A stretch of DNA of 64,000 nt from Rubrivivax sp. (lineage in GTDB: Bacteria; Pseudomonadota; Gammaproteobacteria; Burkholderiales; Burkholderiaceae_C). The notes below the pieces were generated by a model. The model was given only the letters and a program-made list of their open reading frames with translations, was not told where the DNA came from and did not search any database. Within the stretch, counting starts at the first letter, position 1. Every line of letters starts with the position of its first letter. The position numbers and the translations under genes were made by a program. Shown here one piece after another: positions 21,863 to 54,826 of the stretch. The DNA lies in contig JAJTGU010000015.1 in the NCBI GenBank assembly GCA_021297985.1, positions 1,083-65,082 of the forward strand, read 5' to 3'.

Positions 21863-21911
21863 CGGCGCAATCCCCTCGACCCGATCCTTCTTCTCCACCT
21901 CACCCATCGAC

Positions 21912-22493: not shown

Positions 22494-22497
22494 ACCG

Positions 22498-34933: not shown

Positions 34934-36487
34934 ATGCAGCCTGTCCGTACCACCGGGCGTTGCGTCGCGTTCGGTTGGCGGCCGCCGAAGGGGGCTGCGT
35001 ACAGTGCAGACTCGACAACACCGAAGCCCCCCGCTGTGAGTCCCGCCGTGCCGCCATCGCCCCCCGTCTTGCCAACCGCCGAGCGCTGGCGCCAGCGCTG
35101 GCAATGGTTTTCCGGGGCCAGCGTGCGCACGTTCAATGCCTATGCCAACTGGCTGCTGACGATCAGCTGGCGGCGCTTCATCGTCTACGGCATCCTGCTC
35201 ATCGTCGGCGTTGCGATCGTTCACGATTCGCCGCCATTGACCTGGCGCACGACCGAGGTCATCCAGCACGAGCGACCCAAGGTCGTGATGGTGCAGCGCC
35301 CGCCGGCACCGCCGGCAGCACCTGCGCCGCCAGCCAACCGCAGCCGCGACATCCCGATCCGCATCGAGGGTGGCAAGGACGGCGAGGGCGTGCAGATCAG
35401 CATCGGCAAGGACGGCATCAAGATCAACGCCGGGCGGCCCGCCAGTGCGGCCGAAGGCGCCGAGGCGGCGGTCCCGGCATCGCCGGCCGCGTCAGCCGCG
35501 GTCCCGGCAGGACTCAGCGCCGAGTTGCGGATCGCGATCGAGCAGGTCAAGCGCGAGTACGAAGCCGCGGCCGAGCAGGCACGGGCCGACGCCGCCGAAG
35601 CGTTGCGCGACGCCGAGGAGGCCCGGCGCGACGCCGAGCATGCGCTCGAGAAGCTCACCGAAGCGAGCGAGCCCCATACCGAGTTCCGCGAGACGCGCTG
35701 GGGCATCGGCGACGCGCTGCTGCAGTTCGTGTCGGTGTTTGTCGTCGCGTCGGCGGTGCTGAAGTACACCTGGAAGGGCACCCAGCAGGCCACGGTCAAG
35801 GCGGCCAAGGCCACACAGACGGCCGAGGCCGAATCACTGAAGCGCCAGGTCGTCGAGGCGCGAATGGCGGCGATGCAGGCGCAGATCGAGCCGCACTTCC
35901 TGTTCAACACGCTGGCCTCGATCGACCACTTGATCGAGACCGATCCGCCACGGGCCAGCCTGATGCAGAAGAACCTGATCGCGCTGCTGCGCGCCAGCAT
36001 GCCGACGATGCGCGAGGCCAGTGGCAACGGCGGCAACGGGGGCAATGCCGGCGTGCGCGAACTGGGGCGCGAGATCGCCGTGATCCGGCCCTACCTCGAG
36101 ATCCTGAAGGTCCGGATGGAAGAACGCCTGACGACCGAGATCGCGGTGCCCGAGGGCCTGAACTCGGCCGAGTTCCCGCCGATGATGATCCAGACCCTGG
36201 TCGAAAACGCGATCAAGCATGGCCTGGAACCCAAGGCCGAAGGTGGTCATCTGCGTGTGGTGGCCGAGGTCGTGCACGGCAAGCTGCAGGTGACCGTGGC
36301 CGACACCGGACTGGGCTTCGGCAAGGCCGCGACCGCCGGCACCGGCGTCGGCCTGGCCAACGTGCGCGAGCGCCTGCAGATGCTGTATGGGCCGCGGGCC
36401 GTCTTGACGGTCGCCGAAAACTCCCCGAGCGGCACCGTCGTGTCGATCACCGTCCCCTACAAGAGCCTGGAAGGAGCCGCCGCATGA
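34934..36487 (+). CDS. sensor histidine kinase, LytS/YehU-type (His_kinase + HATPase_c) with an atypical N-terminal region
   Basis: QIEPHFLFNTLASIDHLIETDP, LVENAIKHGL, DTGLGF..GVGLANVRERL. Two TM helices flank about 190 aa of Pro/Ala-rich and charged coiled-coil sequence. The start is uncertain: ATG 34934, or GTG 35036/35048. Confidence 0.85.
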   Translation: MQPVRTTGRCVAFGWRPPKGAAYSADSTTPKPPAVSPAVPPSPPVLPTAERWRQRWQWFSGASVRTFNAYANWLLTISWRRFIVYGILLIVGVAIVHDSPPLTWRTTEVIQHERPKVVMVQRPPAPPAAPAPPANRSRDIPIRIEGGKDGEGVQISIGKDGIKINAGRPASAAEGAEAAVPASPAASAAVPAGLSAELRIAIEQVKREYEAAAEQARADAAEALRDAEEARRDAEHALEKLTEASEPHTEFRETRWGIGDALLQFVSVFVVASAVLKYTWKGTQQATVKAAKATQTAEAESLKRQVVEARMAAMQAQIEPHFLFNTLASIDHLIETDPPRASLMQKNLIALLRASMPTMREASGNGGNGGNAGVRELGREIAVIRPYLEILKVRMEERLTTEIAVPEGLNSAEFPPMMIQTLVENAIKHGLEPKAEGGHLRVVAEVVHGKLQVTVADTGLGFGKAATAGTGVGLANVRERLQMLYGPRAVLTVAENSPSGTVVSITVPYKSLEGAAA

Positions 36488-36997: not shown

Positions 36998-37855
36998 ATG
37001 AACACCGCCACCGCCCCCCGCGCCATCCTCGCCGACGACGAGCGCCTGATGCGCGAGCAACTGCGTGCCCGGCTGGCCGAAGTCTGGCCCGAGCTCCAGA
37101 TCGTCGCCGAGGCCAAGAACGGTCTTGAAGCGGTCGAGCTGGTCAAGGCCCACCGGCCCGACATCGTGTTCCTGGACATCCGCATGCCCGGACTCACCGG
37201 CGTCGAGGCGGCGCGCCAGATCGCGCAGCTGGCGTTGGACGATGACTCGGATGGCGAGGGGGATGGCGAGCACGACGAGGTGCTTCTGCCGGAGATCGTG
37301 TTCATCACCGCCTACGACCAGTACGCGGTCGAGGCCTTCGAGCAAGGGGTTGCCGACTATGTGCTCAAGCCGGCCGAACGGGCACGGCTCGAAGTCACGG
37401 TCGGCCGCATCAAGAAGCGCTTGGCAGCGCGCGCCGAAGGACGCGATGCGCCGGCCGACGTCGCACCCGCGCAGCCGCTGCAGCAGATCCTGCACCAGCT
37501 GCAGGCGCGGATGAGCGGCCAGGCACCGCAGTACCTGAAGTGGATCCAGGCCAACGTCGGCAGCACGATCCAGATGATCGCCACCGACGAGGTGCTGTTC
37601 TTCGTCAGCGACGAGAAGTACACCCGGGTCCAGACCGCAGGCGTCGAAGCGCTGATCCGCAAGCCGATCAAGGAACTCGTCGACGAGCTCGACCCGGCCA
37701 GGTTCTGGCAGATCCACCGCAGCACCCTGGTCAACGTCAACGCCGTGGCCAGCGTCGTGCGCGACTACCGCGGCCGCCAGATCGTCAGCGTCAAGGGCAG
37801 CAACGAGAAGCTTGAAGTCAGCCGCAGCTACACGGGCCTGTTCAAGGGCATGTGA
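36998..37855 (+). CDS. LytR/AlgR (LytTR) family response regulator
   Basis: Receiver domain (ILADDERLMREQL...DIVFLDIRMPGLTG) plus LytTR domain (EVLFFVSDEKYTRVQT...FWQIHRSTLVNVNAV). The receiver carries an acidic insert, LALDDDSDGEGDGEHDE. Confidence 0.92.
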   Translation: MNTATAPRAILADDERLMREQLRARLAEVWPELQIVAEAKNGLEAVELVKAHRPDIVFLDIRMPGLTGVEAARQIAQLALDDDSDGEGDGEHDEVLLPEIVFITAYDQYAVEAFEQGVADYVLKPAERARLEVTVGRIKKRLAARAEGRDAPADVAPAQPLQQILHQLQARMSGQAPQYLKWIQANVGSTIQMIATDEVLFFVSDEKYTRVQTAGVEALIRKPIKELVDELDPARFWQIHRSTLVNVNAVASVVRDYRGRQIVSVKGSNEKLEVSRSYTGLFKGM

Positions 37856-38124
37856 GGCGTGCGCCGTCATGGCGCCGGTCTGTCGTGGGCGACGGGCCCC
37901 TGAACATCGGGGCGGCCAAAGCGTGACGAATTACCGGTCTTCGGCCGAGTTGTAACAGCGGCGGGTCCTCCCCTCTACAACTGAAGCAACTGCATGCAGA
38001 CGGGCACCAAGGCTCACTGCGACAGTTCACCGAGCCGGCTACCGTCGGTTCCCAGATGCTGAAAGGTCGTGTGCCCCAGGGCCTGCCGCTCAGCCCCAAG
38101 AACGAATCCGCTCCTCGCCCCGCC

Positions 38125-39243
38125 ATGTTCTTTTCCCGTCCACGAGATCCGGCCCAGCGCCGCCTGCCGTTGTTCGGATCGGCCAAGGCGCCTCCCTGCG
38201 TCGGCGGCTGGCTCGAACGCGAAGGCGTGTGCATGGGCACCGCGATCGTGCTGAAGTGGTGGAGCGCGCTGCCCTCCCGCACCGCGCACGACATCGCCCA
38301 GGCCGACGCCGCCTGGGCGCTGACGATGGCCGAGATGCGGCGCATCGACGAGTTGCTGTCGCCGCACAAGGCCACCAGCGAGCTGTCGCGCATCAACCGC
38401 GAGGCCGGCAGCCACGCGGTCGCGCTGAGCGAAGAGGTCTGCGGCCTGCTGGCCCAGGCGCTGGCGTTTTCAGCCGCCACGGACGGCGCCTTCGACATCA
38501 GCTATGCCGCTGCCGGTCAGCACTACGACTACCGGGCCGGCATCGCACCCGACATGGTGACGCTGCGCCGTGCCCGCGAATCCATCGGCTGGCGCGAATT
38601 GCATCTCGACCCGGTGCGCGGCACCTTGCGTTTTGGCCGCCCGGGCATGCGCATCGACCTCGGCGGTTTTGCCAAGGGTCATGCGGTGGACTGCGCCGCG
38701 GCTGCCCTGCAGCGTCACGGCGTGCAGCACGCCTGGTTGTCCGCAGGGGGCGACAGCCGCGTCATCGGCGACCGCCGAGGACGGCCCTGGAGCGTTGCCG
38801 TGCGCGACCCCAGGGTCGAGGGCGCGGCCGCAACCGCCGCGACCGCCGAACCCATTGCCGTGCTGCCGTTGGTGGACTGCGCGGTGTCGACCTCGGGCGA
38901 CTACGAGCGTGCCTTCGTCAAGGACGGCGTGCGCCACCACCACCTGCTGGACCCCGCAACCGGCAGTGCCGCCATCGGCGCGCGCAGCGTGACGACGATC
39001 GCCGATGCGTCGGCCCACGCCGGCCTCGCCACCGAGGCCTGGAGCAAGGCGCTGTTCGTGCTCGGGCCACAGCGCGGCATGCCGCTGCTGGCGCACAACG
39101 CGCCTGGACTCGACGCCGTGCTGGTCGACGCGGCTGGCAGGCTGCATTACTCGCGGGGCCTGGCGCAGGCGCTGCGGCCAGCGGTCGCCCTTCCCGAATC
39201 GAGCTCACCGCTGGTCTCGCGACCTGCCGCCGCGGTGGCCTGA
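38125..39243 (+). CDS. apbE: FAD:protein FMN transferase (ApbE family)
   Basis: CMGTAIVL..., SELSRINREAG, AFDISY, IDLGGFAKGHAVD, VSTSGDYERAF..HHHLLDP. The start is uncertain: ATG 38125 or ATG 38056. Neither gives a convincing signal peptide. Confidence 0.85.
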   Translation: MFFSRPRDPAQRRLPLFGSAKAPPCVGGWLEREGVCMGTAIVLKWWSALPSRTAHDIAQADAAWALTMAEMRRIDELLSPHKATSELSRINREAGSHAVALSEEVCGLLAQALAFSAATDGAFDISYAAAGQHYDYRAGIAPDMVTLRRARESIGWRELHLDPVRGTLRFGRPGMRIDLGGFAKGHAVDCAAAALQRHGVQHAWLSAGGDSRVIGDRRGRPWSVAVRDPRVEGAAATAATAEPIAVLPLVDCAVSTSGDYERAFVKDGVRHHHLLDPATGSAAIGARSVTTIADASAHAGLATEAWSKALFVLGPQRGMPLLAHNAPGLDAVLVDAAGRLHYSRGLAQALRPAVALPESSSPLVSRPAAAVA

Positions 39244-39285
39244 GCCGGCACCGTGTCCCAGAACGAACCCCAGAAAGTCTCCGGC

Positions 39286-42200
39286 ATGTCCATGACCTCA
39301 GGTTTGAATCGCACGCTGATCGCCGCGCTGGGCGGCCTGGCCGTGGCGGCCACCATCGCCGGCTGCCTGGGCGGCAGCGGAGATGGCGATACGCGCGACA
39401 CGGTCGTCGTGCAGGGCGACGTGCCCATCGTCTATGCCAAGCGCGCCACCACGCTGGGCATGAACCCCACCGACGGCACGCCCACCGCACCGGGCGGCGA
39501 CCTGCTGCTGCGCGAGAAGAGCAGCCCCAGCGCCCGCGAGCACAACCTGACGGCGCGCTTCACGCAGGGCGTCGGCGATGTGTCCGACCCCGAGGCCAGC
39601 CCGGACGGCAGGAAGGTCGTCTTCGCGATGCGCTGCCCGGCGAGCAACACCGCCACCGTGGACGGCACGGCCACGGGCGCGCGGGCCTGCACGGGTCGCT
39701 GGAACCTCTGGGAGTACGAAATGCGCGCGCTCGAAGGCGACGCGCTGATCCAGGGCACGTTCCGCCGTCTCACGGCAAGCAACCAGCACGATGACGTCGA
39801 CCCGGCCTACCTGCCGGCCAACCGGGGCGTGGTCTTCGCGAGCAACCGACAGCACTTCAGCAGCACCGACACCCGCTTCGGTCGCGCGTACCACACGCTG
39901 GACGAGTACGAACGCGAGCGGGTGCTGAACCTGCACACCATCAACGCCACGGGCGGCGACCTGAAGCAGATCAGCTTCAACATGAGCCATGAGCGCAACC
40001 CGGTCGTGCGCGCCAACGGCGACATCCTGTTCTCGCGCTGGGAGCACGTCGGCGACCGCAACCGCTTCGCGATCTTCAAGGCCAAGCCCGACGGCACCGA
40101 CATGTTCGTGCTCTACGGCGCACACAGCCCGGGCAACAGCTACCTGCACCCGCGCGAGATGGACCCGCGTGGCAAGTACAAGGGCTTCCTGGCCAGCACG
40201 CTGATGTCGCTGTCGGGCACCCAGGAAGGCGGCTCGCTGGAGTTCATCGACGCCGCGAACTACAGCGAGTTCAACACCCCGGCCTCGCGCAACGTGCCTG
40301 CCGCCGGCGGCCAGCGCCAGGGCACCGACCGGCAACTGTCCGACGGTCGCGGGCTGTCGACCTTCGGCCGCGTGACGACGCCGTTCCCGCTGTGGGACGG
40401 CACGGATCGCATCCTGCTGTCGTACCGCCCCTGCGAGGTGACCCGCAACGGCGTCGTCACCGCCTGCGCCAACCTCACCACCGACGAGATCGCGCGCGTT
40501 CAGACCGCCAACCGCTCGATGGCCGACCGTGCTGCCGATCCGATCCAGGACAACGCGCCGGCGGCCTACGCGGTGTGGATGTTCGACCCCGGCCCCCAGA
40601 CCTGGACCCTGGTCGCGGCGCCGCCACCGGGCTTCATGTACGTCGACCCGATCGCGCTGCAACCGCGCACCGAGCCCAGCGCCGCCCAGCCGACGACGGT
40701 GGACGATGCGCTGGCCGCGCGCGGCATGGCGCTGATCGAGGTCCGCAGCGTCTACGACACCGACGGCCTGAACCGGATGTCCGAGAACATGCTCGTCGCG
40801 GCCGACCGCCGCGCCGGCTGTGACCGCGCCATCGCGATGCGGGCGGTCGCCAACGCCGACCCGACCGAGACGCGCAGCCAGGTCGCCGATCTGGTGCGCA
40901 TGAAGGACCCGGCCGACCCGGCCTATGGCTGCGCGCCGGTGCGCTTCGTGCGGGCCATCCGCGCCGTCGGGCCGCCCTCCGGCATGACCGGCACCCGTGG
41001 CGCCATCGGCGAGACCGATTTCGAGCAGCAGCAGATCATCGGTTATGCGCCGATCGAACCCGACGGTTCGTTCAAGCTCGAGGTGCCGGCCGACATTCCG
41101 CTGGCGCTGTCCGTGGTCGACGAACAGGGCCGCGCGTTCCAGACCCACACCAACTGGATCCAGGTCCGCCCCGGCGAGCGTCGCACCTGTGATGGCTGCC
41201 ACAGCCCGCGTCGCGGTGCGGCGCTGAATGCCGGTTCGGTCGTCAACACCATGCCCGCGGCGCTGATGCCGTCGATGGCCTCGCAGCACCAGAGCGGCGA
41301 GACGCTCGCCAGCCTGCGCACCCGGCTCGACCCGGCGGCGCTGCTGCTGGCCGCCAGCCCGGTGTTCAGCGACGTGTGGGCCGACACCACCCGGGCCGGC
41401 GTGCAGGCCCGGCCGACCCTCGCGTTGCGCTACGCCGGCAACGTCGACCCGGCCGACGACCTGACGACGCCCGTGCCGCAGCGCGGCTACGTCAACTACC
41501 CGGACCACATCCAGCCGATCTGGGAAAAGGTGCGCGGACCTGGCGGCAGCCACACCTGCGTCGCCTGCCACGGCGAGACGGCGCGCACCAACCTGCTGGG
41601 CACGGTCTCGGGCACCGGTCGCATCGTCAGCTACGAAGAGCTGCTGATGGGCGAGCCGCAACTCGACGCGGCCACGGGCCAGCCTCGCATCCGGGTCGTC
41701 AACGGCGTGCCGGAAGTCATCCGCGGCCCGGCCCTGGTCAACACCAGTTCGGGCGCCATGAGCACCGCCGGCCAGACGCGCAAGAGCCGGCTCGGCGAGA
41801 TCCTGTTCGGCCAGAGCCTGCTCGCCGGCGCCGACAGCCGCGTCGCGTATCCGGCGCCACCGGCCTCGACGCCGACGCTGGTTTCGGTGCCCGACCACTC
41901 GATGCTGCTGAACAAGGCGGAGAAGCGCCTGGTGTCGGAATGGATGGATCTGGGCGGCCAGTACGTCAACGACCCGTTCACCGCTGCCGGCAACCTGCGC
42001 ACGGTGACCGCGCTGTCGCAGACCAGCTTCGAGGCCGAGGTGCAGCCGACGCTGCGTGCGCTGTGCGTCAACTGTCACACCCCGGGTGCCGGGTTCCAGC
42101 GCAATCGCTTCGTGCTCACCGGCAGTCCCGAGGGCGACTACGGTGCGACGCTGTCGATGGTCAGCGACACTTGCCGCCCTGAACGCAACCCGCTGCTTGC

Positions 42201-42324
42201 GCGGCCCTCGACCATTCCGCACCCCAATGGGGCCCTGACGCAGACCGAAGCCCTGCTGCCGGCGACCGGTGACGCCTACCGCCGCATCTCGCAGTGGATC
42301 GCGCGCGGCTGCAGCAACAACTGA
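39286..42324 (+). CDS. lipoprotein with TolB/PD40-like beta-propeller and three CXXCH heme-binding motifs (hydrazine-synthase-alpha-like architecture)
   Basis: Signal plus lipobox MSMTSGLNRTLIAALGGLAVAATIAGC. Propeller-like repeats (SPDGRKVVFA, ANRGVVFASNR, ANGDILFSRWE). CDGCH at 41188-41202, CVACH at 41557-41571, CVNCH at 42064-42078. Confidence 0.85.
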   Translation: MSMTSGLNRTLIAALGGLAVAATIAGCLGGSGDGDTRDTVVVQGDVPIVYAKRATTLGMNPTDGTPTAPGGDLLLREKSSPSAREHNLTARFTQGVGDVSDPEASPDGRKVVFAMRCPASNTATVDGTATGARACTGRWNLWEYEMRALEGDALIQGTFRRLTASNQHDDVDPAYLPANRGVVFASNRQHFSSTDTRFGRAYHTLDEYERERVLNLHTINATGGDLKQISFNMSHERNPVVRANGDILFSRWEHVGDRNRFAIFKAKPDGTDMFVLYGAHSPGNSYLHPREMDPRGKYKGFLASTLMSLSGTQEGGSLEFIDAANYSEFNTPASRNVPAAGGQRQGTDRQLSDGRGLSTFGRVTTPFPLWDGTDRILLSYRPCEVTRNGVVTACANLTTDEIARVQTANRSMADRAADPIQDNAPAAYAVWMFDPGPQTWTLVAAPPPGFMYVDPIALQPRTEPSAAQPTTVDDALAARGMALIEVRSVYDTDGLNRMSENMLVAADRRAGCDRAIAMRAVANADPTETRSQVADLVRMKDPADPAYGCAPVRFVRAIRAVGPPSGMTGTRGAIGETDFEQQQIIGYAPIEPDGSFKLEVPADIPLALSVVDEQGRAFQTHTNWIQVRPGERRTCDGCHSPRRGAALNAGSVVNTMPAALMPSMASQHQSGETLASLRTRLDPAALLLAASPVFSDVWADTTRAGVQARPTLALRYAGNVDPADDLTTPVPQRGYVNYPDHIQPIWEKVRGPGGSHTCVACHGETARTNLLGTVSGTGRIVSYEELLMGEPQLDAATGQPRIRVVNGVPEVIRGPALVNTSSGAMSTAGQTRKSRLGEILFGQSLLAGADSRVAYPAPPASTPTLVSVPDHSMLLNKAEKRLVSEWMDLGGQYVNDPFTAAGNLRTVTALSQTSFEAEVQPTLRALCVNCHTPGAGFQRNRFVLTGSPEGDYGATLSMVSDTCRPERNPLLARPSTIPHPNGALTQTEALLPATGDAYRRISQWIARGCSNN

Positions 42325-42326
42325 CG

Positions 42327-42950
42327 ATGCCACGACGATCTTCGATCCCTTCCGCGCTGTGGCCTGCGCTGCTGGCCCTGGCCCTGGCCCTTGGCCTGTC
42401 GGCCTGCGGCGGTGGTGACAGCGCGCTGGACAACCCGCCGCAGGTCGCCAACCCGCCGGTGGCGGACAACAACGCCGGCCGGCTGTCGTTCGTCTACTTC
42501 CAGCGCTGCATCCAGCCGGTGCTGAACACGCCGCTGCGGGTCGTGATCAACGGCGTTCCGTCGATCAACACCTGCGCCAGTGCGGGGTGCCACGACAACG
42601 CGAGCGGCACCGGCGGTGCCCTGCGCCTGGTGGGCAGCGCGCTGCCGGCCGATCTGACGCTGACCCCGGCGCAGATCCGCAACACCGAGATGTACCGCAA
42701 CTACTTCTCGTCGGCCGGCGAGGTGGCCATCGGCCAGCCGCTGCAGAGCCGGCTGCTGAACAAGCCCCTGGTGCGCAACGTGCTTCACGGCGGCGGCCTG
42801 ATCTTCGAGTCGCCTGACGATCCCGCGGCCCGGCTGATCCGATACTGGATCGAACGGCCGATGCCGCAGGGCCAGGACGAGTTCAGCCCCGCCGCAGCGG
42901 CCTTGTTCACACCGGCAGATCTGAACACGGGGGCTTGCAACACCCAATGA
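42327..42950 (+). CDS. lipoprotein with a cytochrome-c-like module carrying CX4CH (CASAGCH)
   Basis: The ATG lies 2 nt after the upstream stop. Lipobox LALGLSAC. FVYFQRCIQPVLNTPL...CASAGCHDNASGTGGALRL resembles the F..V.P.L...C..CH modules in the upstream protein. Confidence 0.75.
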   Translation: MPRRSSIPSALWPALLALALALGLSACGGGDSALDNPPQVANPPVADNNAGRLSFVYFQRCIQPVLNTPLRVVINGVPSINTCASAGCHDNASGTGGALRLVGSALPADLTLTPAQIRNTEMYRNYFSSAGEVAIGQPLQSRLLNKPLVRNVLHGGGLIFESPDDPAARLIRYWIERPMPQGQDEFSPAAAALFTPADLNTGACNTQ

Positions 42951-42960
42951 CCCCGACCCA

Positions 42961-43045
42961 GGGCCCGCATGAGCGGGCCGTGACGGCTCTATCGCCCGCA
43001 TGAGTGGGCCACAAGACAACACCACGAGGGCGCGCATGACGCGAG
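42961..43045 (+). repeat. three tandem small hairpins with CATGA-containing loops in an intergenic spacer
   Basis: GGCCCGC-ATGA-GCGGGCC (about 42962-42979), GCCCGC-ATGA-GTGGGC (about 42993-43008) and CGCG-CATGA-CGCG (about 43030-43042). The CCCGCATG core recurs at the 43081 start codon. Confidence 0.45.
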
Positions 43046-43080
43046 GGACACAGAGGACAGGCACGACGGCGACAGCCCGC

Positions 43081-43851
43081 ATGGCGCCAGCACACGGTGG
43101 CGTGGCGGCGTTGCTGTTGCTGCTGCTGGCCCTGCCCAGCCAGGCGCAGATCCTGCCGGCCACGCCGGGCGTGGACCGCCCGGTGCCGGACGGCCACCTG
43201 ACCGTCGAGGACCCCTTCCTGGAACTGCACAGCGGCCCGGGGCGTGGCTTCCCGGTGTTCTTTGTCGTCGAACGCGGGCGTTGGATTGCCATCGAGATGC
43301 GGCGCACGGACTGGTTCCTGGTCCGCACGCAGGAAGGTGCTCGCGGCTGGGTGCCGCGGGCGCAGATCGAACGCACGCTGGCCGGGGGTGCCACTTCGTT
43401 GCGTGATCTGATGGTCGACGGCCTGCTCGCCCGTCGTGTCGAGATGGGGGGCAGCTGGGGACGTTTCGACGGCGAGAGCATGCTCAAGCTCTGGGCCCAT
43501 GTGCGCGCGAGCGAGATCTTCGGTGTCGAACTCGCCACCGGTCAGGTCCAGGGCGTGTTCTCGGGGACCGATTTCTGGCACGCCTCGCTGGTCGCCGAGC
43601 CCTGGGGCCAGGCGGCGTGGTCGCCCTTTGCCAGTGTCGGCCTCGGGCAGTTCCGCAACTTCCCGAACACGAGCCTCGTCGGCGCGAAGTTCACCGACGC
43701 GCGGCTCGCCAGCGCCAGCATCGGCCTGCGCTGGCGCGCCGGCCCCCGCCTGATCGTGCGCGCCGACTGGACCCTGTACACCGCCTTCGTGGCCGACGAC
43801 CGCAGCCCCGAGTACCGGGCGCTCACCGCCGGCCTGGCGTTTTCGTTCTGA
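43081..43851 (+). CDS. SH3-like domain + outer-membrane beta-barrel protein
   Basis: Signal MAPAHGGVAALLLLLLALPSQAQ. SH3_3-like GPGRGFPVFFVVERGRWIAIEMRRTDWFLVRTQEGARGWVPRAQI. C-terminal OMP signature YRALTAGLAFSF. Confidence 0.75.
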   Translation: MAPAHGGVAALLLLLLALPSQAQILPATPGVDRPVPDGHLTVEDPFLELHSGPGRGFPVFFVVERGRWIAIEMRRTDWFLVRTQEGARGWVPRAQIERTLAGGATSLRDLMVDGLLARRVEMGGSWGRFDGESMLKLWAHVRASEIFGVELATGQVQGVFSGTDFWHASLVAEPWGQAAWSPFASVGLGQFRNFPNTSLVGAKFTDARLASASIGLRWRAGPRLIVRADWTLYTAFVADDRSPEYRALTAGLAFSF

Positions 43852-43869: not shown

Positions 43870-44520
43870 ATGTCATCGATCCGCCTGTTCGCTGCCCTCG
43901 CCCTGATGGCGACCGTTTCGGCTCACGGCCAGACGGCGGCGTCTTCGCCAGTACCCGCCGCCGCCTCGCCCCAGCCCATCGAACCGCGGGTCGTGCGGCG
44001 CGAGGTCAAGCTGCCGCGGTTCCCGAGCCGCGACTTCGAGGTCTCGGCCTTTGCCGGTAGCTATTCGACACAGAACTTTGGCAATGGCAACGTTTCCGGC
44101 TTCAAGCTGGGCTACCACATCACCGAAGACTTCTTCGTGCTCGCGACGGTCGGCCAGACCACCGTCAGCGACGAAAACTTCCGCCGCGTGCTGCCGGGCG
44201 GCCTGTTCGCCAAACCGGAGCAGAAACTGGACTACGCCAACGTCGCGGCCGGCTGGAACATCCTGCCCGGCGAGGTGTTCCTCGGCGGCAAGCGCGCGAT
44301 GCCGGCAGCGCTGTATCTCCTGGGCGGAATCGGCACGACCAAGTTCGCCGACCAGCGCAAGCAGACCGTGCACTACGGCTTCGGCTACCGCGTCTTCGTC
44401 TGGAATCGCTTTGCGATCAGCGCCGACGTTCGCCAGCACCACTTCGCGCTCGACCTGCTGGGTCGGCGCGAGACCACCCGCAATCCCGAGCTGAGCCTGA
44501 CCGCCAGCGTCTTCTTCTGA
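43870..44520 (+). CDS. outer-membrane beta-barrel protein
   Basis: Signal MSSIRLFAALALMATVSAHG. Alternating-hydrophobicity strands. Terminal ...LSLTASVFF. Confidence 0.8.
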   Translation: MSSIRLFAALALMATVSAHGQTAASSPVPAAASPQPIEPRVVRREVKLPRFPSRDFEVSAFAGSYSTQNFGNGNVSGFKLGYHITEDFFVLATVGQTTVSDENFRRVLPGGLFAKPEQKLDYANVAAGWNILPGEVFLGGKRAMPAALYLLGGIGTTKFADQRKQTVHYGFGYRVFVWNRFAISADVRQHHFALDLLGRRETTRNPELSLTASVFF

Positions 44521-44530
44521 CCCTGCCGCC

Positions 44531-45076
44531 ATGATGTCGACGCCCGATCTCGACCCGGCCCGCCGCACCTTTGCCGGCACCGTCGCCGCTGGCCTCACCG
44601 CCAGCCTGGTGGCGCCCTGGTTTGCCGGCGTGGCCCACGCCACAAGCGTCAAGCCCAAGGCGCTGCCGCCGGACTTCACGCTGCCCAGCAGCCTGGGGGG
44701 CAACCTGCGCCTGGCCGAGCAGCGCGGCCAGGTCGTGCTCGTGAACTTCTGGGCCACCTGGTGCGGCCCGTGCCTGATCGAGTTGCCGCACCTGAACCGG
44801 CTGCACGACAAGTACCGCAGCGCCGGCGTGCTGCTGCTGGGCGTTTCGGTGGACAACGACGCCAAGGCCGCCGCGGCGATGGCCAAGAAGCTCGACCTGC
44901 GCTTTGCCACGCTGTTCGACACCGCCAAGACCGTGAGCCGGGCCTGGGACCTGGACGCCATGCCCTCGACCGTGCTGCTGGACCGCGACGGCCGTGTCCG
45001 CCACATCCACCTCGGCTACCGCGACGGCCTGGAGAAGACCTACGAAGCCCAGCTCCGCGAGCTGGTCAAGGAGTGA
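44531..45076 (+). CDS. TlpA family thiol:disulfide oxidoreductase (Tat-like signal)
   Basis: ARRTFAG twin-arginine-like signal. Thioredoxin fold with VLVNFWATWCGPCLIELP. Confidence 0.9.
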   Translation: MMSTPDLDPARRTFAGTVAAGLTASLVAPWFAGVAHATSVKPKALPPDFTLPSSLGGNLRLAEQRGQVVLVNFWATWCGPCLIELPHLNRLHDKYRSAGVLLLGVSVDNDAKAAAAMAKKLDLRFATLFDTAKTVSRAWDLDAMPSTVLLDRDGRVRHIHLGYRDGLEKTYEAQLRELVKE

Positions 45077-45081
45077 GCGCG

Positions 45082-45327
45082 ATGCGACCAGAACGCGGCT
45101 TCGTCGGCACCTCGTTGGCGCTCGTGCTGGCGCTGCTCGGCAGCGGCTGCGCGATCAAGCCCATCGAGCCCTGGGTCAAGCCCTACGAGCGGGAGCGGCT
45201 CACCGACCCGGTGATGCAGTGGTCGCGCGCCAGCCTGGCCGACCGCCACCGCGAGCACATCCATTCGGTGCGCGAGGGCGCCCGCGGCGCGGTGGGCGTG
45301 CAAGGGGGCGGCTGTGGCTGCAACTGA
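45082..45327 (+). CDS. DUF4266 family small lipoprotein
   Basis: 81 aa. LALLGSGCAIKPIEPWVKPYERERL... ending in GGGCGCN, which I recall as the DUF4266 hallmark. The ATG lies 5 nt after the tlpA stop. Confidence 0.8.
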   Translation: MRPERGFVGTSLALVLALLGSGCAIKPIEPWVKPYERERLTDPVMQWSRASLADRHREHIHSVREGARGAVGVQGGGCGCN

Positions 45328-45340
45328 AGCCGGGACTTCT

Positions 45341-45487
45341 CCCACCCTCACCCCAGCCCTCTCCCGCCCTGCGGGAGAGGGGGCCGGAGAGCTTTCCCCA
45401 GAATTGGCAGGAGAGGGGGCCGTGGGACTGTGGCGCTGGCTGTCGAACTCCCTCTCCCGCTGGCGGGAGAGGGCAGGGGTGAGGGGG
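45341..45487. repeat. inverted pair of REP-like palindromic elements plus one partial copy
   Basis: Copy A is CCCTCACCCCAG + CCCTCTCCCGC-CCT-GCGGGAGAGGG (about 45345-45381). Copy B is CCCTCTCCCGC-TG-GCGGGAGAGGG + CAGGGGTGAGGG (about 45450-45485), the inverse of A. A partial copy GGCAGGAGAGGGGGCCG lies at about 45407-45422. Confidence 0.75.
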
Positions 45488-46561
45488 CTGTTCAGCGGAT
45501 TGGCGGCCGCTGGCGCGGCAACTGTCGCCCCGGCCGCGGTGCTGCCCGACGACAAGGCCGAGGCGATGTTCCACGTCTACGACGGCGGCGGGGTCAAGGC
45601 CGACGGCCCGGCTTTCCTGGTGCGCAAGAAGCTCGGCGAGCGGGTGTCGCTGTCGGCGGGCTACTACATCGACGCGGTCAGCAATGCCTCGATCGACGTC
45701 GTCACCACGGCCAGTCCGTTCAAGGAGAAGCGCACCGCCTGGGATTTCGGCGCCGACTGGCTGGTCGGCAACAGCGTGCTGACGCTGTCGGGCTCGACCA
45801 GCCGCGAGCCCGACTACGAGGCCAACGCCGTCAATGCCGATGTCGCGGCCGATGTCTTCGGTGGCATGACGACGCTCTCGCTCGGCTTCACGCGCGGCAG
45901 CGACCGGGTCGGACGGACCGACCGCCGCGAGGTGTTCTTCGACGACGTGCGGCGCTGGCAGTACCGCGCCGGCGTGACCCAGATCCTGTCGCCGCGCTGG
46001 CTGATGAGCCTGAACGCCGAGGCGATCTCCGAAGACGGCTACCTCGGCAGTCCGTATCGCGCGGCGCGCGTGTTCGGCGCCTTCGTGCCCGAACGGCTGC
46101 CACGCACGCGCACCGGCCGGGCCGTCAAGCTGCGCAGCCTGGCCGAGGTGCTGCCCGACACCGCGCTGCGGATCGAGGCGCGCGCCTACTGGGACACGTG
46201 GGATGTTCGCGGCCGCACGATCGAGATCGCCGGCACGCGAAAGTTCGGCCCGCAGTGGCTGCTCGACGTCTCGCTGCGCAGCCACAAGCAGACGGCGGCG
46301 CTGTTCTACGCCGACAACGCCCAGGTCGACACCGTCTTCGTGACACGCAACCGGCAGTTGTCGGCCTTCAACTCGCTGGGCCTGGGCGCCAAGCTGACCT
46401 GGAAGCCGGCCGCCGCCTGGGCCGAGCGCTACGGCGTGCAGGTCACCGGCGTGTTCGAGCGCAAGCGTTTCCGCTTCCCCGAGTTCATCGACCTGCGCAA
46501 CCAGCGACCCTACGCGTACGACGCCAACGTCATGCAAGTGGTGCTGGCCGGCCGCTTCTAG
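45479..46561 (+). CDS. DUF3570 family protein (putative OM beta-barrel)
   Basis: FHVYDGGGVKADGPAFLVRKKL...YYIDAVSNASIDVVTTASP..., with terminal ...VVLAGRF. GTG 45479 gives signal MRGLFSGLAAAGAATVAPAA. The ORF-track GTG 45314 would add a repeat-encoded N-terminus. The start is uncertain. Confidence 0.8.
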   Translation: MRGLFSGLAAAGAATVAPAAVLPDDKAEAMFHVYDGGGVKADGPAFLVRKKLGERVSLSAGYYIDAVSNASIDVVTTASPFKEKRTAWDFGADWLVGNSVLTLSGSTSREPDYEANAVNADVAADVFGGMTTLSLGFTRGSDRVGRTDRREVFFDDVRRWQYRAGVTQILSPRWLMSLNAEAISEDGYLGSPYRAARVFGAFVPERLPRTRTGRAVKLRSLAEVLPDTALRIEARAYWDTWDVRGRTIEIAGTRKFGPQWLLDVSLRSHKQTAALFYADNAQVDTVFVTRNRQLSAFNSLGLGAKLTWKPAAAWAERYGVQVTGVFERKRFRFPEFIDLRNQRPYAYDANVMQVVLAGRF

Positions 46562-46585: not shown

Positions 46586-47341
46586 ATGCATGGCCTGCTC
46601 GACACCTCGTTCGACACCACGATCGGCGAGCCGCCCGAAAGCGGTCGCCGCCGAACCCACTGGCTGAGCCGGCTGCTGGGCGTTGCCCTCGCGGTGGCGA
46701 TGCTGCTGCCGCTGCTGCTGGCGCTCTGGGCCTTGCCGGCCGGTGCGCAGGACAAGCCCGTGGCGCCCGCGGCCCCTGCCGCTGCCGCCGCGTCTGCTCC
46801 TGCAAGCGCGGCCTCCGCGCCGGAAGTCGCGGCGAGCGTGGCGAGTGCCGCGAGCGTTGCGAGCGCTGCCGCACCCGCAACGCCGCCCCCACCCCCAGCG
46901 CCGCTGGAAACCCGCATCCAGCAGCTCAAGGCCGATCTGATCCAGCTCAACCGCGACCTGCTGATCCTCGAAGAGGAGCTGCTGTTCCCGGCCGGCACCC
47001 AGGTCGCGATCTTCGTGTCGATGGACGTCGGCCGGCTGTTCGAGCTGGAGTCGGTGCGGGTCGTGCTCGACGACAAGGTCGTCGCCCAGCATCTGTACTC
47101 ACCGCTCGAGGTTCAGGCCCTGCACCGCGGTGGCGTGCAGCGCCTGGTGCTGGCCAACGTGAAGAGCGGCGAGCACCGGATCGATGCGTTCTTCACCGGC
47201 CGCGGCCCGCACGAGCGCGACTACAAGCGCGGCACCACGGTCAAGTTCGACAAGGGCAGCGAGCCGCGCTACATCGAGCTGCGCATCCGCGACGTGCAGG
47301 CCAAGCTGCAGCCCGAGTTCGAGGTCAAGGTTTGGCAGTGA
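46586..47341 (+). CDS. membrane-anchored or secreted coiled-coil protein, unknown function
   Basis: TM or signal segment WLSRLLGVALAVAMLLPLLLALWALPAGA. Ala/Pro/Ser-rich linker. Coiled coil LETRIQQLKADLIQLNRDLLILEEELL. Beta-rich C-terminal domain. Confidence 0.75.
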   Translation: MHGLLDTSFDTTIGEPPESGRRRTHWLSRLLGVALAVAMLLPLLLALWALPAGAQDKPVAPAAPAAAAASAPASAASAPEVAASVASAASVASAAAPATPPPPPAPLETRIQQLKADLIQLNRDLLILEEELLFPAGTQVAIFVSMDVGRLFELESVRVVLDDKVVAQHLYSPLEVQALHRGGVQRLVLANVKSGEHRIDAFFTGRGPHERDYKRGTTVKFDKGSEPRYIELRIRDVQAKLQPEFEVKVWQ

Positions 47342-52358: not shown

Positions 52359-52398
52359 TTCGCCCTCGCAGGCCATCGCGCAGGCCATCGCTCAGGTG

Positions 52399-54821: not shown

Positions 54822-54826
54822 TCGCC

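What the first reader, a model, noticed from the sequence alone, without database searches (positions are those of the whole stretch)
39286..42950. Beta-propeller lipoprotein with three c-type heme motifs plus a partner lipoprotein with a CX4CH variant
The 1013-aa lipoprotein has TolB/PD40-like propeller repeats, then a middle region containing ...VRPGERRTCDGCH, then two modules of the form F/I-x-P-x-(W/L)...C-x-x-C-H (CVACH, CVNCH). This propeller + heme middle domain + heme C-domain layout resembles what I recall for the hydrazine synthase alpha subunit. It is unexpected in an aerobic-type Burkholderiales context. The next gene, 2 nt downstream, encodes a 207-aa lipoprotein with the same F..CIQPVL...C....CH module, but the motif is C-ASAG-CH (CX4CH), a rare heme-attachment spacing. 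If both lipoproteins are OM-facing, this could be a surface or periplasmic redox enzyme.
Basis: partly seen in the sequence, partly recalled or inferred. Interest (0 to 1): 0.7.

Follow-up and report, generated by a model that had tools for sequence, protein, structure and literature searches.

The report
HzsA-like cytochrome pair in envelope cluster
Two adjacent lipoprotein genes encode a three-haem relative of the anammox hydrazine-synthase alpha subunit and a small partner with a rare but strictly conserved CX4CH motif; they are not a hydrazine synthase, but fixed parts of a widespread, uncharacterised cell-envelope gene cluster of about 17 genes that also carries flavin, thiol and Tol/Glt-like motor proteins.

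Summary
Gene A (39286-42324, 1012 aa) is a lipoprotein with three CXXCH motifs. Gene B (42327-42950, 207 aa) starts 2 nt later and has one CASAGCH.

- **A is a true HzsA homologue.** It hits Pfam HZS_alpha at 69 bits and its only PDB sequence hit is 5C2V chain A. It keeps the bis-His pair of haem alphaII (His762/His871).
- **A is not a hydrazine synthase.** It lacks Tyr591 and Cys303, has no beta/gamma partner, and scores 52 bits against an 800-bit cut-off on the HzsA equivalog model.
- **B is a stand-alone paralogue of A's last haem module** (hhalign 93.6%). It founds a small Pfam-less family in which CX4CH is conserved down to about 30% identity.
- **Haem site 3 of A switches spacing among orthologues:** 47 CX2CH and 33 CX3CH.
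- **A and B never occur alone.** In 80 of 80 Burkholderiales loci and 7 of 7 distant loci they sit in one cluster: ApbE, A, B, two OM barrels, TlpA-like redoxin, DUF4266, DUF3570, TPR proteins, TolQ/TolR/TolR and a GltG-like protein.

This joins the ApbE/DUF3570 flavinylation cluster, whose function is uncertain, to a Glt-core-like module resembling the myxobacterial core complex of unknown function.

My best reading is that A and B form the haem branch of an envelope redox machine. The substrate is unknown and haem attachment is inferred, not shown.

The parts
34934..36487 (+). LytS-type sensor histidine kinase. It lies upstream and is conserved next to the cluster in only some relatives.
   Evidence: Pfam His_kinase and HATPase_c. 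Found upstream in 31 of 80 related loci.
36998..37855 (+). LytTR-family response regulator.
   Evidence: Pfam Response_reg and LytTR. Found in 34 of 80 related loci.
38056..39243 (+). ApbE-family FAD:protein FMN transferase, the first gene of the conserved cluster. The true start may lie downstream of 38056.
   Evidence: Pfam ApbE, 231.6 bits. Lies directly upstream of gene A in 77 of 80 loci (absences explained by contig ends) and in distant loci L081, L082, L089 and L090.
39286..42324 (+). Gene A: a 1012-aa lipoprotein. It has an N-terminal TolB/HzsA-like beta-propeller (about aa 45-560), an HZS_alpha middle domain with haem site 1, and two C-terminal haem modules (sites 2 and 3).
40996..41202 (+). 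HZS_alpha middle domain (aa 571-639), ending in haem motif 1, CDGCH (aa 635-639, nt 41188-41202).
   Evidence: PF18582 at E 7e-19. Aligns to 5c2v_A residues 495-568. C635, C638 and H639 are invariant down to 31% identity.
41557..41571 (+). Haem motif 2, CVACH (aa 758-762). The predicted distal ligand is His871 (nt 41896-41898).
   Evidence: His871 aligns with 5c2v_A chain His745, which is alphaHis772, the distal ligand of haem alphaII. Chain numbering equals paper numbering minus 27. His871 is invariant in all orthologues compared.
42064..42078 (+). Haem motif 3, CVNCH (aa 927-931), in the extra C-terminal module that HzsA lacks.
   Evidence: Among 80 orthologues this site is CX2CH in 47 and CX3CH in 33.
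42327..42950 (+). Gene B: a 207-aa lipoprotein and stand-alone paralogue of A's module 3. It carries CASAGCH (aa 83-89, nt 42573-42593). Its only other histidine is His154 (nt 42786-42788).
43000..43851 (+). SH3 domain fused to an outer-membrane beta-barrel.
   Evidence: Weak Pfam SH3_3/SH3_4 and OMP_b-brl hits. Holds the same position in 77 of 80 loci (absences explained by contig ends) and in all distant loci.
43870..44520 (+). Outer-membrane beta-barrel of the OMP_myx_plus type.
   Evidence: NCBIfam TIGR04565, 119 bits against a cut-off of 60.
44531..45076 (+). TlpA/ResA-like periplasmic thiol:disulfide oxidoreductase with a CGPC motif.
   Evidence: Pfam Redoxin/AhpC-TSA. NCBIfam ResA and TlpA hits fall below their cut-offs. 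The CxxC motif is conserved in the loci.
45082..45327 (+). DUF4266 small lipoprotein ending in GGCGCN (a CXC motif).
   Evidence: Pfam DUF4266, 76.5 bits. The C-terminal CGC is conserved in 69 of 69 loci.
45314..46561 (+). DUF3570 protein, a family shown to be an ApbE flavinylation substrate in Chlorobium. The mechanical ORF start at 45314 overlaps a palindromic repeat, so the true start is probably later.
   Evidence: Pfam DUF3570, 94 bits. Flavinylation reported in PMC8238504. Repeat element found.
46586..47341 (+). Conserved 251-aa protein of unknown function with a signal anchor.
   Evidence: No family hit. Present in 57 of 80 loci; absences are explained by contig ends.
47341..49260 (+). 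TPR protein of 639 aa.
   Evidence: Pfam TPR hits. Frame-wise GC3 supports the gene boundaries. An equivalent gene is present in the distant loci.
49257..52358 (+). Large TPR/YfiO-like protein of about 1033 aa. The GTG start at 49257 is inferred.
52345..53157 (+). TPR lipoprotein-like protein of 270 aa.
   Evidence: Pfam TPR_1, TPR_2 and TPR_11. A weak GltE hit.
53157..53555 (+). Small secreted protein of 132 aa, just upstream of the motor genes.
   Evidence: A gene of 92-110 aa sits at the same position in L081, L085, L089 and L090.
53621..54280 (+). MotA/TolQ/ExbB-family proton channel (AglR-like).
   Evidence: Pfam MotA_ExbB. NCBIfam TolQ at E 6e-17, below its cut-off.
54318..55315 (+). Two ExbD/TolR-family genes, 54318-54821 and 54827-55315 (AglQ/AglS-like).
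   Evidence: Pfam ExbD twice.
55312..56466 (+). TonB/TolA-like transducer with an AgmX/PglI C-terminal domain (GltG-like).
   Evidence: NCBIfam NF033768, 61 bits against a cut-off of 40. GltG at E 3.6e-10 and TonB_Cterm at E 3e-5.

Best explanation
A and B are two c-type cytochrome lipoproteins carrying 3 + 1 haems. By the E. coli +2 rule they are probably anchored to the periplasmic face of the outer membrane.

**What A is.** A is a non-anammox homologue of the hydrazine synthase alpha subunit. It has:
- a TolB-like propeller packed against a middle domain, whose haem 1 has an ordinary His proximal ligand and is the likely substrate-facing haem;
- a bis-His electron-transfer haem equivalent to HZS haem alphaII;
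- an extra C-terminal haem module.

**What B is.** B is a free-standing copy of that extra module. Its two attachment cysteines are four residues apart (CX4CH), and its only two histidines (His89, His154) would be the axial ligands.

**Proposed role.** The pair works as the haem branch of an extracytoplasmic redox assembly encoded by the same operon. The other members are:
- ApbE, which supplies FMN to the DUF3570 protein;
- the TlpA-like redoxin and the CXC lipoprotein DUF4266, which supply thiol-based electron transfer;
- two small OM barrels, three TPR proteins and a TolQ/TolR/TolR/GltG-like motor, which form the envelope-spanning scaffold.

Electrons would pass between the thiol/flavin components and the four haems, to or from a still unknown substrate bound at the propeller/haem-1 pocket.

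**Shown:** homology, motifs, their conservation, and the synteny.
**Inferred:** covalent haem, the axial ligands, localisation, physical association with the other products, and the direction of electron flow.
**Unknown:** the substrate.
For: **Homology to HzsA**
- PF18582 scores 68.6 bits.
- The only PDB sequence hit is 5c2v_A, at E 4.5e-11 with the single sequence and 3.4e-19 with a profile. The pieces fall in the propeller, the middle domain and the C-terminal domain.
- Foldseek ranks 5c2v_A first at E 1e-15, then TolB propellers.

**Haem ligands**
- His871 aligns to alphaHis772 and is invariant.
- B has only two His, both invariant.

**Motif conservation**
- Three CXXCH persist in A down to 31% identity.
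- CX4CH is kept in every B-family member with the region intact: 120 of 120, 78 of 78, and the distant members.

**B is homologous to A module 3:** hhalign probability 93.6%.

**Precedent for the motif.** The B profile's only PDB matches, though not significant (E 0.07-0.7), are the CX4CH haem-2 site of Desulfovibrio cytochrome c3...CATAGCHDN. CX3CH and CX4CH are accepted haem-c motifs (and established knowledge of c3).

**Synteny**
- The order ApbE-A-B-SH3OMP-OMP-Tlp-DUF4266-DUF3570-X is identical in 80 of 80 loci.
- The same cluster, with TPR and ExbB/ExbD genes, appears in 7 of 7 distant loci with GC 42-67%.

**Function of the neighbours**
- DUF3570 is an experimentally shown ApbE substrate, and the ApbE/DUF3570/thioredoxin/DUF4266 set is a recognised flavinylation cluster (PMC8238504).
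- The transducer gene passes the AgmX/PglI-domain cut-off.
Against: - No experiment shows haem in either protein.
- The AF2 model of A is poor (pLDDT 49).
- The model of B (pLDDT 65) has no structural neighbour in the PDB (all E>2). B's fold therefore gives no independent support for a cytochrome.
- No cytochrome c maturation genes were seen among the window ORFs scanned. The rest of the genome could not be examined.
- The DUF3570 protein of this clade lacks the canonical [S/T]GA[S/T] flavinylation motifs. It has SNAS/TTAS instead. The flavin link is therefore weaker here than in the published clusters.
- No DsbD or other inner-membrane electron entry point is encoded in the cluster.
- Gene clustering shows functional linkage, not a physical electron path.
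- Pfam PSCyt1 and PD40 do not match.
Confidence: 0.6

Rival explanations
1. A, with or without B, is a genuine hydrazine synthase or performs HZS-like N-N bond chemistry on hydroxylamine, NO or ammonia. That would be an anammox-type reaction in a Burkholderiales bacterium.
For: A shares with HzsA the middle domain, the propeller and a bis-His C-terminal haem.
Against: - The NCBIfam HzsA equivalog scores 51.9 bits against a cut-off of 800 and matches only aa 576-640.
- Tyr591, the haem alphaI ligand, is Arg642 here.
- There is no cysteine between aa 136 and 382 to stand in for the Zn ligand Cys303.
- No beta-propeller or dihaem-peroxidase (beta/gamma) gene is present in the cluster or among the window ORFs scanned.
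- Hagglund et al. 2025 reach the same conclusion for other HzsA homologues.
Confidence: 0.02
2. A is mainly a structural, TolB-like component of a Tol/Glt-type envelope machine. Its haems, and B, act as a redox sensor or regulator of that machine rather than as a catalytic electron-transfer chain.
For: - TolB is the next-best structural match after HzsA.
- The cluster has TolQ/TolR/TolA-like genes, YbgF-like TPR proteins and OM barrels.
- In one distant locus the motor genes lie directly upstream of the HZS_alpha gene.
Against: - Four conserved haem sites, an ApbE, a flavoprotein family, a redoxin and a CXC protein make a large investment for sensing alone.
- Conserved propeller histidines (H217, H235, H254) and the invariant SPRRG segment after haem 1 suggest a pocket rather than a passive scaffold.
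Confidence: 0.15
3. The cluster is a small porin-cytochrome-type conduit that moves electrons across the outer membrane, for metal oxidation/reduction or extracellular electron uptake. A and B would be the periplasmic or surface cytochromes, and the barrels or DUF3570 the porin.
For: - Lipoprotein cytochromes sit next to two OM barrel genes and DUF3570.
- The host group (Rubrivivax/Leptothrix relatives) includes metal oxidisers.
- Meheust et al. note iron-transporter links for some DUF3570 clusters.
Against: - There are only four haems in total, and known porin-cytochrome conduits use deca-haem or larger cytochromes.
- The two barrels are small (216-283 aa).
- The cluster also occurs in lineages of 42-46% GC of unknown physiology.
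- Surface exposure of A or B has not been tested.
Confidence: 0.1
4. The CX4CH of B, and perhaps the CX2-3CH at site 3 of A, is not a haem attachment site. It would be a disulfide or metal-binding loop, and the adjacent TlpA-like redoxin and DUF4266 would act on those cysteines.
For: - The cysteine spacing is variable: 2 or 3 at A site 3, 4 in B, and 6-7 in three B-family members.
- B has no Pfam cytochrome hit.
- B has no structural match to a cytochrome.
- A thiol oxidoreductase is always encoded nearby.
Against: - The His directly after the second Cys is invariant everywhere.
- The lead-in F..[VI]xP[IV]L and the downstream conserved His reproduce the arrangement of the crystallographically proven haem alphaII site.
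- CX4CH with small residues and a Gly before the second Cys is exactly the cytochrome c3 haem-2 pattern.
- ResA/CcmG/TlpA-type redoxins are themselves part of normal cytochrome c maturation (established knowledge).
Confidence: 0.1

Closest known systems
Hydrazine synthase alpha subunit (HzsA, Kuenenia stuttgartiensis, PDB 5C2V chain A)
   Same: - Same domain order: beta-propeller, middle domain with a CXXCH haem, and a C-terminal domain with a bis-His haem.
- The middle domain aligns at E 1e-16 conditional.
- The distal His772 of haem alphaII is conserved as His871.
   Different: - Tyr591 and Cys303, which give haem alphaI its unusual Tyr ligation and Zn site, are absent.
- There is no beta or gamma subunit gene.
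- A has an extra C-terminal haem module and a lipoprotein anchor.
- The HzsA equivalog score is far below its cut-off.
- The organism and gene context are unrelated to anammox.
Non-anammox HzsA homologues of clades I-IV (Hagglund et al. 2025, PMC12758564), also annotated 'HZS_alpha domain-containing' or 'HzsA-related' proteins
   Same: [quoted passage not shown]
- 66%-identical homologues already carry these database names.
   Different: - Those clades were selected for co-location with fused beta-gamma homologues, often with FG-GAP/CRTAC1 and ABC-transporter genes. Where they have haem alphaII at all, they lack His772.
- The family here has no beta-gamma neighbour, keeps the His772 equivalent, adds a third haem module and a CX4CH partner, and sits in an ApbE/DUF3570/Glt-like cluster.
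Tetrahaem cytochrome c3 of Desulfovibrio (CX4CH haem sites)
   Same: The local motif is the same, C-A-x-A-G-C-H-D-N, with small residues and a Gly before the second Cys. This gives a precedent for covalent bis-His haem on a CX4CH.
   Different: There is no significant sequence similarity (E 0.07-0.7) and no fold similarity. B is monohaem, a lipoprotein, and from a different family.
ApbE / DUF3570 / thioredoxin-like / DUF4266 flavinylation-associated cluster (Meheust et al. 2021, PMC8238504)
   Same: All four components are present, in one operon with A and B. DUF4266 has its CXC tail.
   Different: - The published description mentions no HZS_alpha cytochrome, CX4CH protein, OM barrels, TPR proteins or Tol-like motor.
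- Here DUF3570 lacks the [S/T]GA[S/T] motifs.
- No DsbD is adjacent.
Agl/Glt 'core complex of unknown function' (aglRQS with gltC/D/E/G; Luciano et al. 2011, PMC3169522) and the Tol-Pal system
   Same: - One TolQ-like and two TolR-like genes.
- A TonB/TolA-like transducer with the AgmX/PglI C-terminal domain.
- Three TPR proteins.
- An OMP_myx_plus barrel.
- All lie in one cluster in a non-gliding proteobacterium.
   Different: - The TPR genes match GltC/GltE only weakly.
- Phylogenetic membership of the Glt clade was not tested.
- No redox components are described for the myxobacterial machinery or for Tol-Pal.

Membership tests
Hydrazine synthase alpha subunit (HzsA proper) | Full-length match to the HzsA equivalog model (NCBIfam NF052339, cut-off 800 bits). 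| tested here: not met
   The score is 51.9 bits, covering only aa 576-640.
Hydrazine synthase alpha subunit (HzsA proper) | Haem alphaI with Tyr591 as the iron ligand, and the CXXCH His587 diverted to a Zn site shared with Cys303. | tested here: not met
   Tyr591 aligns with Arg642: CSGCHYGSYRG in HzsA against CDGCHS-PRRG here (with residue roles). A has no Cys between aa 136 and 382.
Hydrazine synthase alpha subunit (HzsA proper) | Co-located beta (7-bladed propeller) and gamma (dihaem CCP/MauG-like) subunit genes. | tested here: not met
   None was found among the cluster genes or the other window ORFs scanned with Pfam/NCBIfam. None was found in the related loci either.
Hydrazine synthase alpha subunit (HzsA proper) | C-terminal bis-His haem alphaII (CXXCH plus distal His772). 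| tested here: met
   A has CVACH (His762). His871 aligns to chain His745, which is His772, and is invariant in orthologues down to 31% identity.
HZS_alpha domain-containing / HzsA-related proteins (uncharacterised superfamily) | Pfam PF18582 middle domain above the gathering score, including its CXXCH. | tested here: met
   68.6 bits against 26.6, at aa 571-639. Homologues are named this way by NCBI and UniRef.
HZS_alpha domain-containing / HzsA-related proteins (uncharacterised superfamily) | N-terminal TolB/PD40-like beta-propeller. | tested here: inconclusive
   - No Pfam PD40 hit, even at E<=10.
- A weak NCBIfam TolB hit.
- Faint PD40/Tricorn_N hits in orthologues.
- Foldseek hits to 5c2v_A and TolB, but from a model with pLDDT 49.
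c-type cytochromes (covalent haem on CXnCH) | A conserved Cys-Xn-Cys-His motif in an exported protein. | tested here: met
   Both proteins have lipoprotein signal peptides. Motifs are conserved in all orthologues. Presence by chance is excluded.
c-type cytochromes (covalent haem on CXnCH) | Haem covalently attached, and a maturation system (System I or II) present in the genome. | not testable with these tools
   This needs biochemistry and the whole genome. No ccm/ccs genes were seen among the window ORFs scanned.
Planctomycete cytochrome C domain (PSCyt1, PF07635) | A match to the Pfam model. | tested here: not met
   No hit for A's modules or for B at E<=10. Only a pattern-level resemblance exists, recalled from memory.
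Cytochrome c3 family | Significant sequence or fold similarity to tetrahaem c3. | tested here: not met
   Only motif-length matches at E 0.07-0.7. No Foldseek match.
ApbE/DUF3570 flavinylation-associated cluster (Meheust 2021) | Co-located ApbE, DUF3570, a thioredoxin-like protein, and DUF4266 with a C-terminal CXC. | tested here: met
   All four are above the Pfam cut-offs. DUF4266 ends in CGCN.
ApbE/DUF3570 flavinylation-associated cluster (Meheust 2021) | Two [S/T]GA[S/T] flavinylation motifs in DUF3570. | tested here: not met
   The window protein has DAVSNASIDVVTTAS. 60 of 65 orthologues have no [ST]GA[ST]. Whether SNAS can be flavinylated is unknown.
Agl/Glt core complex (Luciano 2011) | A TolQ-like gene, two TolR-like genes, and a TonB-like GltG-type transducer in one cluster. 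| tested here: met
   Pfam MotA_ExbB, and ExbD twice. NF033768 AgmX/PglI C-terminal domain scores 61 bits against 40, and GltG gives E 3.6e-10.
Agl/Glt core complex (Luciano 2011) | GltC/GltD/GltE orthologues, and placement inside the Glt clade in gene trees. | tested here: inconclusive
   Three TPR proteins are present, but they hit the GltC/GltE models only weakly and far below cut-off. No phylogeny was made.

The most novel reading that the evidence does not exclude
The cluster encodes a previously unrecognised proton-motive-force-coupled redox machine spanning the envelope. A Tol/Glt-type motor and TPR scaffold would position a HzsA-like catalytic cytochrome (A), its CX4CH partner (B), a flavinylated DUF3570 barrel and a thiol relay at the outer membrane.

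If so, three things follow:
- The 'ancestral core complex of unknown function' from which myxobacterial gliding and spore-coat machines evolved was originally a redox device.
- The DUF3570 flavinylation system has a haem terminus.
- The alpha subunit of hydrazine synthase descends from the catalytic subunit of such machines.
Probability: 0.2. Interest if true: 0.8.

Novelty: new variant of a known kind. Interest (0 to 1): 0.55.

Why it matters
Three separate literatures each end in 'function unknown':
- the non-anammox relatives of hydrazine synthase alpha;
- the ApbE/DUF3570/DUF4266 flavinylation cluster;
- the Agl/Glt-like core complex found in non-gliding proteobacteria.

This locus and its relatives show that, in one widespread lineage of clusters, all three are parts of one conserved operon. 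I found no paper that makes this connection.

**Tractable hosts.** Hosts with cultured isolates exist: Rubrivivax, Methylibium, Caldimonas, Aquabacterium and Rivibacter isolates were among the hits. A knockout or pull-down could address all three questions at once.

**A new cytochrome family.** B defines a small, Pfam-less protein family whose hallmark is a CX4CH site.

**A natural experiment in haem attachment.** An orthologous site in A toggles between CX2CH and CX3CH. This is useful for studying how haem-attachment systems tolerate spacing variants.

**Relevance to anammox evolution.** This is an HzsA homologue that keeps the bis-His alphaII site (His772 equivalent), which the published clade I homologues lack.

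Tried and rejected
- **AlphaFold2 of A** with a 23-sequence alignment gave pLDDT 49. It was used only for a coarse Foldseek ranking, not for any residue-level claim.
- **AlphaFold2 of B** gave pLDDT 65, pTM 0.62. Foldseek against the PDB returned nothing below E 2, so there is no structural assignment for B.
- **hhalign with shallow alignments** (Neff about 2) gave only P about 0.003 between B and A's modules. It became convincing only with diverse profiles. The module 2 relationships remain weak (15-20%).
- **Pfam scans for PD40 and PSCyt domains at E<=10** found nothing.
- **Supplementary tables of Meheust et al.** were searched for HZS_alpha/PF18582, with no occurrences in the text held.
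- **Cluster-member look-up** to name the organisms of the distant loci gave no taxon names. Those lineages are characterised only by GC content (42-67%) and 31-43% identity.
- **Hydrazine synthase proper** was considered and rejected; see the membership tests.
- **A dedicated apocytochrome reductase role for the TlpA-like gene** was considered. It is less likely because the same redoxin accompanies DUF3570/DUF4266 in published clusters that do not mention cytochromes. It is not excluded.

Full report
**1. What is at the coordinates**

The window is about 70% GC. Its genes can be recognised by third-position GC.

Gene A:
- The ORF at 39253-42324 (+) has an ATG at 39286, giving a 1012-aa product identical to a database protein.
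- It begins with a lipoprotein signal peptide (…AATIAGC, Cys27).
- It contains CDGCH (aa 635), CVACH (aa 758) and CVNCH (aa 927).

Gene B:
- It starts two nucleotides after A's stop, at 42327-42950, and encodes 207 aa.
- Its lipobox is LSAC.
- It has a single CASAGCH at aa 83-89.

Shuffling A's residues gives 0.0037 CXXCH on average, and three are never reached in 20000 trials. A CX2-4CH appears in 52 of 20000 shuffles of B. B has only two histidines, His89 in the motif and His154, and both are invariant among 115 homologues.

**2. Relationship of A to hydrazine synthase alpha**

- Pfam places aa 571-639 in HZS_alpha (PF18582, 68.6 bits against a cut-off of 26.6).
- The only PDB sequence match is 5c2v chain A. 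It scores E 4.5e-11 with the single sequence and 3.4e-19 with a 23-sequence profile. Further weak pieces fall in a propeller blade, at the haem alphaII CXXCH, and at the end of the C-terminal domain.
- The AF2 model of A is poor (pLDDT 49). Foldseek still ranks 5c2v_A first (E 1e-15, 717 columns), followed by TolB and S9-peptidase propellers at E about 1e-7.

The numbering used by Hagglund et al. is the PDB chain numbering plus 27: chain His560 is His587, and chain Tyr564 is Tyr591. On that basis:
- Tyr591, which ligates haem alphaI in HzsA, corresponds to Arg642 here. The segment SPRRG after the motif is invariant in the family.
- No cysteine exists between aa 136 and 382 to play Cys303.
- Chain His745, which is His772, the distal ligand of haem alphaII, aligns with His871. 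His871 is invariant even in orthologues of 31% identity.

The HzsA equivalog model of NCBIfam scores 51.9 bits against a cut-off of 800. No beta or gamma subunit homologue is encoded anywhere nearby.

So A is a real homologue of HzsA with the same domain order plus one extra C-terminal haem module. It fails the features that define the enzyme.

**3. The partner B**

B has no Pfam or NCBIfam family.

A profile search of 1.84 billion 50%-identity cluster representatives finds only 165 relatives at E<=0.001. Wherever the region is present, the motif is C-[AS]-x-x-G-C-H. Three members carry longer loops. Two long proteins carry three or four tandem copies of the domain, each with CX4CH.

Family-wide conserved features:
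- the lipobox;
- L[SC]FxYFxxC[VI]xP[IV];
- the CX4CH;
- GxGGx[FL][RK];
- SxLLxxP;
- H-G-G-G (His154);
- a Trp near the C-terminus.

With diverse profiles, hhalign aligns the B family to A's module 3 over 92 columns (probability 93.6%, E 2e-7). It matches the lead-in helix, the Cys-Cys-His, the LLx[KR]P…H segment (His154 to His979) and the WI motif. Shallow profiles had failed to show this.

B is therefore a stand-alone paralogue of A's last module, with two insertions and a longer Cys-Cys loop.

The B profile's only PDB matches are statistically insignificant. They are the CX4CH haem-2 sites of Desulfovibrio cytochrome c3 (KCATAGCHDN), which is a motif-level precedent only. B's AF2 model (pLDDT 65) has no structural neighbour in the PDB.

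**4. Spacing plasticity**

At haem site 3 of A, 47 of 80 orthologues have CX2CH and 33 have CX3CH, for example CASSCHQ and CMGACHQ. Site 1 (C[DNK]GCH) and site 2 (CXXCH) keep the standard spacing. Together with B's CX4CH, this shows that this module type tolerates two to four residues between the cysteines while always keeping the histidine.

**5. Distribution**

A has more than 1480 and B more than 1680 90%-identity clusters in the protein collection. Named hits are Rubrivivax, Leptothrix and Caldimonas. Some are annotated 'HzsA-related protein' or 'HZS_alpha domain-containing protein'.

In one genome per GTDB species, 343 stretches encode a relative. The best 80 (60-70% identity) are all Burkholderiales of the Rubrivivax/Methylibium/Rhizobacter/Piscinibacter/Caldimonas/Aquabacterium group. 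The window's nearest named relatives are Rubrivivax sp. MAGs. The protein is thus normal for this group, not an oddity.

**6. Gene context, the main new finding**

In all 80 loci the order is ApbE, A, B, SH3-OMP barrel, OMP_myx_plus barrel, TlpA-like redoxin, DUF4266, DUF3570, and a 251-aa unknown. Absences are explained by contig ends.

Downstream in the window lie:
- three TPR proteins;
- a small secreted protein;
- a TolQ/ExbB-like gene and two TolR/ExbD-like genes;
- a TonB-like gene that passes the NCBIfam cut-off for the AgmX/PglI C-terminal domain and weakly matches GltG.

I then used distant B-family members (about 30-36% identical to each other and to B) to fetch contigs. In 7 of 7 lineages, with GC 42-67% and A orthologues 31-43% identical, an HZS_alpha gene lies immediately upstream of the B-like gene. 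Wherever the contig extends far enough, the SH3/OMP, redoxin, DUF3570, TPR and ExbB/ExbD genes follow. DUF4266 is annotated in some of these lineages. In one lineage the TPR-motor block lies directly upstream instead.

The association is therefore ancient and obligatory.

**7. What the neighbours are known to do**

Meheust et al. 2021 defined the ApbE/DUF3570/thioredoxin-like/DUF4266 set as a flavinylation-associated cluster. They showed that Chlorobium DUF3570 is flavinylated by ApbE at two [S/T]GA[S/T] sites. They noted the CXC tail of DUF4266, suggested electron input from DsbD, and left the function uncertain.

Luciano et al. 2011 described a 'core complex' of aglRQS (one TolQ-like, two TolR-like) with gltC/D/E/G (TPR proteins and a TonB-like transducer). 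It is clustered in gamma-proteobacteria, one beta-proteobacterium, Geobacter and Fibrobacter, its function is unknown, and the Myxococcus gliding and spore-coat machines evolved from it.

The present cluster contains both sets plus A and B. I found no paper that links them.

Two departures from the published flavinylation cluster:
- DUF3570 here has YYxDxVSNASIDVVTTAS instead of [S/T]GA[S/T] (60 of 65 orthologues lack the canonical motif).
- No DsbD is adjacent.

**8. Most likely mechanism**

A and B are haem-c lipoproteins. Neither has Asp at +2 after the lipid cysteine, so by the E. coli rule they are sorted to the outer membrane. This is an inference.

- Haem 2 of A, haem 3 of A, and the haem of B each have a conserved candidate distal histidine (His871, His979, His154). 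They are probably low-spin electron-transfer centres.
- Haem 1 sits where HzsA has its proposed catalytic haem, at the propeller/middle-domain junction. It has a canonical proximal His and an invariant surrounding (His621, SPRRG, and three invariant propeller histidines His217/235/254). It is the best candidate for substrate contact.

I propose that the four haems connect to the thiol (TlpA-like, DUF4266) and flavin (ApbE, DUF3570) components within a scaffold built by the barrels, TPR proteins and the Tol/Glt-like motor. Neither the substrate nor the direction of electron flow can be deduced. I put 0.6 on this general reading.

Rivals:
- a mainly structural TolB-like role with regulatory haems (0.15);
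- a small outer-membrane electron conduit (0.1);
- non-haem use of the variant Cys motifs (0.1);
- a true hydrazine synthase (0.02).

**9. Verdict**

The HzsA resemblance is real homology, but the enzyme identity is excluded and the taxonomic surprise is unfounded.

The value lies in two points:
- a Pfam-less CX4CH cytochrome-like family that is a paralogue of A's last module;
- the obligatory embedding of the HzsA-like pair in a cluster that unites two 'function unknown' systems.

I classify it as a new variant of a known kind, with interest 0.55.

Noticed in passing
window 45314-46561 (DUF3570), about aa 125-142 of the mechanical ORF: The DUF3570 protein of this clade lacks the published [S/T]GA[S/T] flavinylation motifs. 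It has a very conserved YY[VI]DxVSNASIDVVTTAS segment instead. 60 of 65 orthologues have no canonical motif. Either ApbE accepts S-N-A-S/T-T-A-S, or this subfamily is not flavinylated.
   Followed up: partly
window 45345-45485, between DUF4266 and the conserved part of DUF3570: A REP-like palindromic element. It has 24-nt arms that are 96% complementary (CCCTCACCCCAGCCCTCTCCCGCC / GGCGGGAGAGGGCAGGGGTGAGGG) and an inner palindrome, CTCTCCCGCCAGCGGGAGAGGG. It sits inside the operon and inside the mechanically called 5' end of the DUF3570 ORF, so the true start of that gene is probably downstream of it.
   Followed up: partly
related loci L001-L080, C-terminal module of gene A orthologues (window equivalent 42064-42078): The orthologous haem site 3 is CX2CH in 47 loci and CX3CH in 33. 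This is a natural spacing polymorphism at one site.
   Followed up: yes
proteins P0363 (720 aa) and P0387 (721 aa) from the representative search: Long proteins with three or four tandem B-like domains, each with its own CX4CH at roughly 120-130 aa spacing. They would be multi-CX4CH cytochrome-like proteins. Their gene context was not examined.
   Followed up: no
window 39286-42324, aa 217, 235 and 254 of gene A: Three histidines in the propeller (His217, S-H235-E-R, W-E-H254) are invariant down to 31% identity but are not conserved in HzsA. They could form a metal or substrate site near haem 1.
   Followed up: no
window 44531-45076: The TlpA/ResA-like redoxin begins with …DPARRTFAGTVAAG…, which looks like a twin-arginine (Tat) signal rather than a Sec signal or lipobox.
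   Followed up: no
window 55312-56466 and 43870-44520: Two myxobacterial-type signatures in a Burkholderiales genome. The AgmX/PglI C-terminal domain scores 61 bits against a cut-off of 40. The OMP_myx_plus barrel scores 119 bits against 60. Both tie the downstream half of the cluster to the Agl/Glt core complex.
   Followed up: partly
locus L085 (metagenome contig, GC 46%): The TPR, TPR, small protein, ExbB, ExbD, ExbD and transducer block lies directly upstream of the HZS_alpha gene instead of downstream. The same modules are present in a permuted order, and DUF4266 is not annotated there.
   Followed up: partly
window 62974-63984 (-): A DUF1501 protein sits at the window edge. From memory, this family often pairs with DUF1800 or PSCyt-type proteins. 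It is probably unrelated to the cluster.
   Followed up: no
window 21248-23079 (+): Two YceI-like periplasmic proteins flank a 225-aa ORF (21816-22493). The ORF was not scanned here.
   Followed up: no
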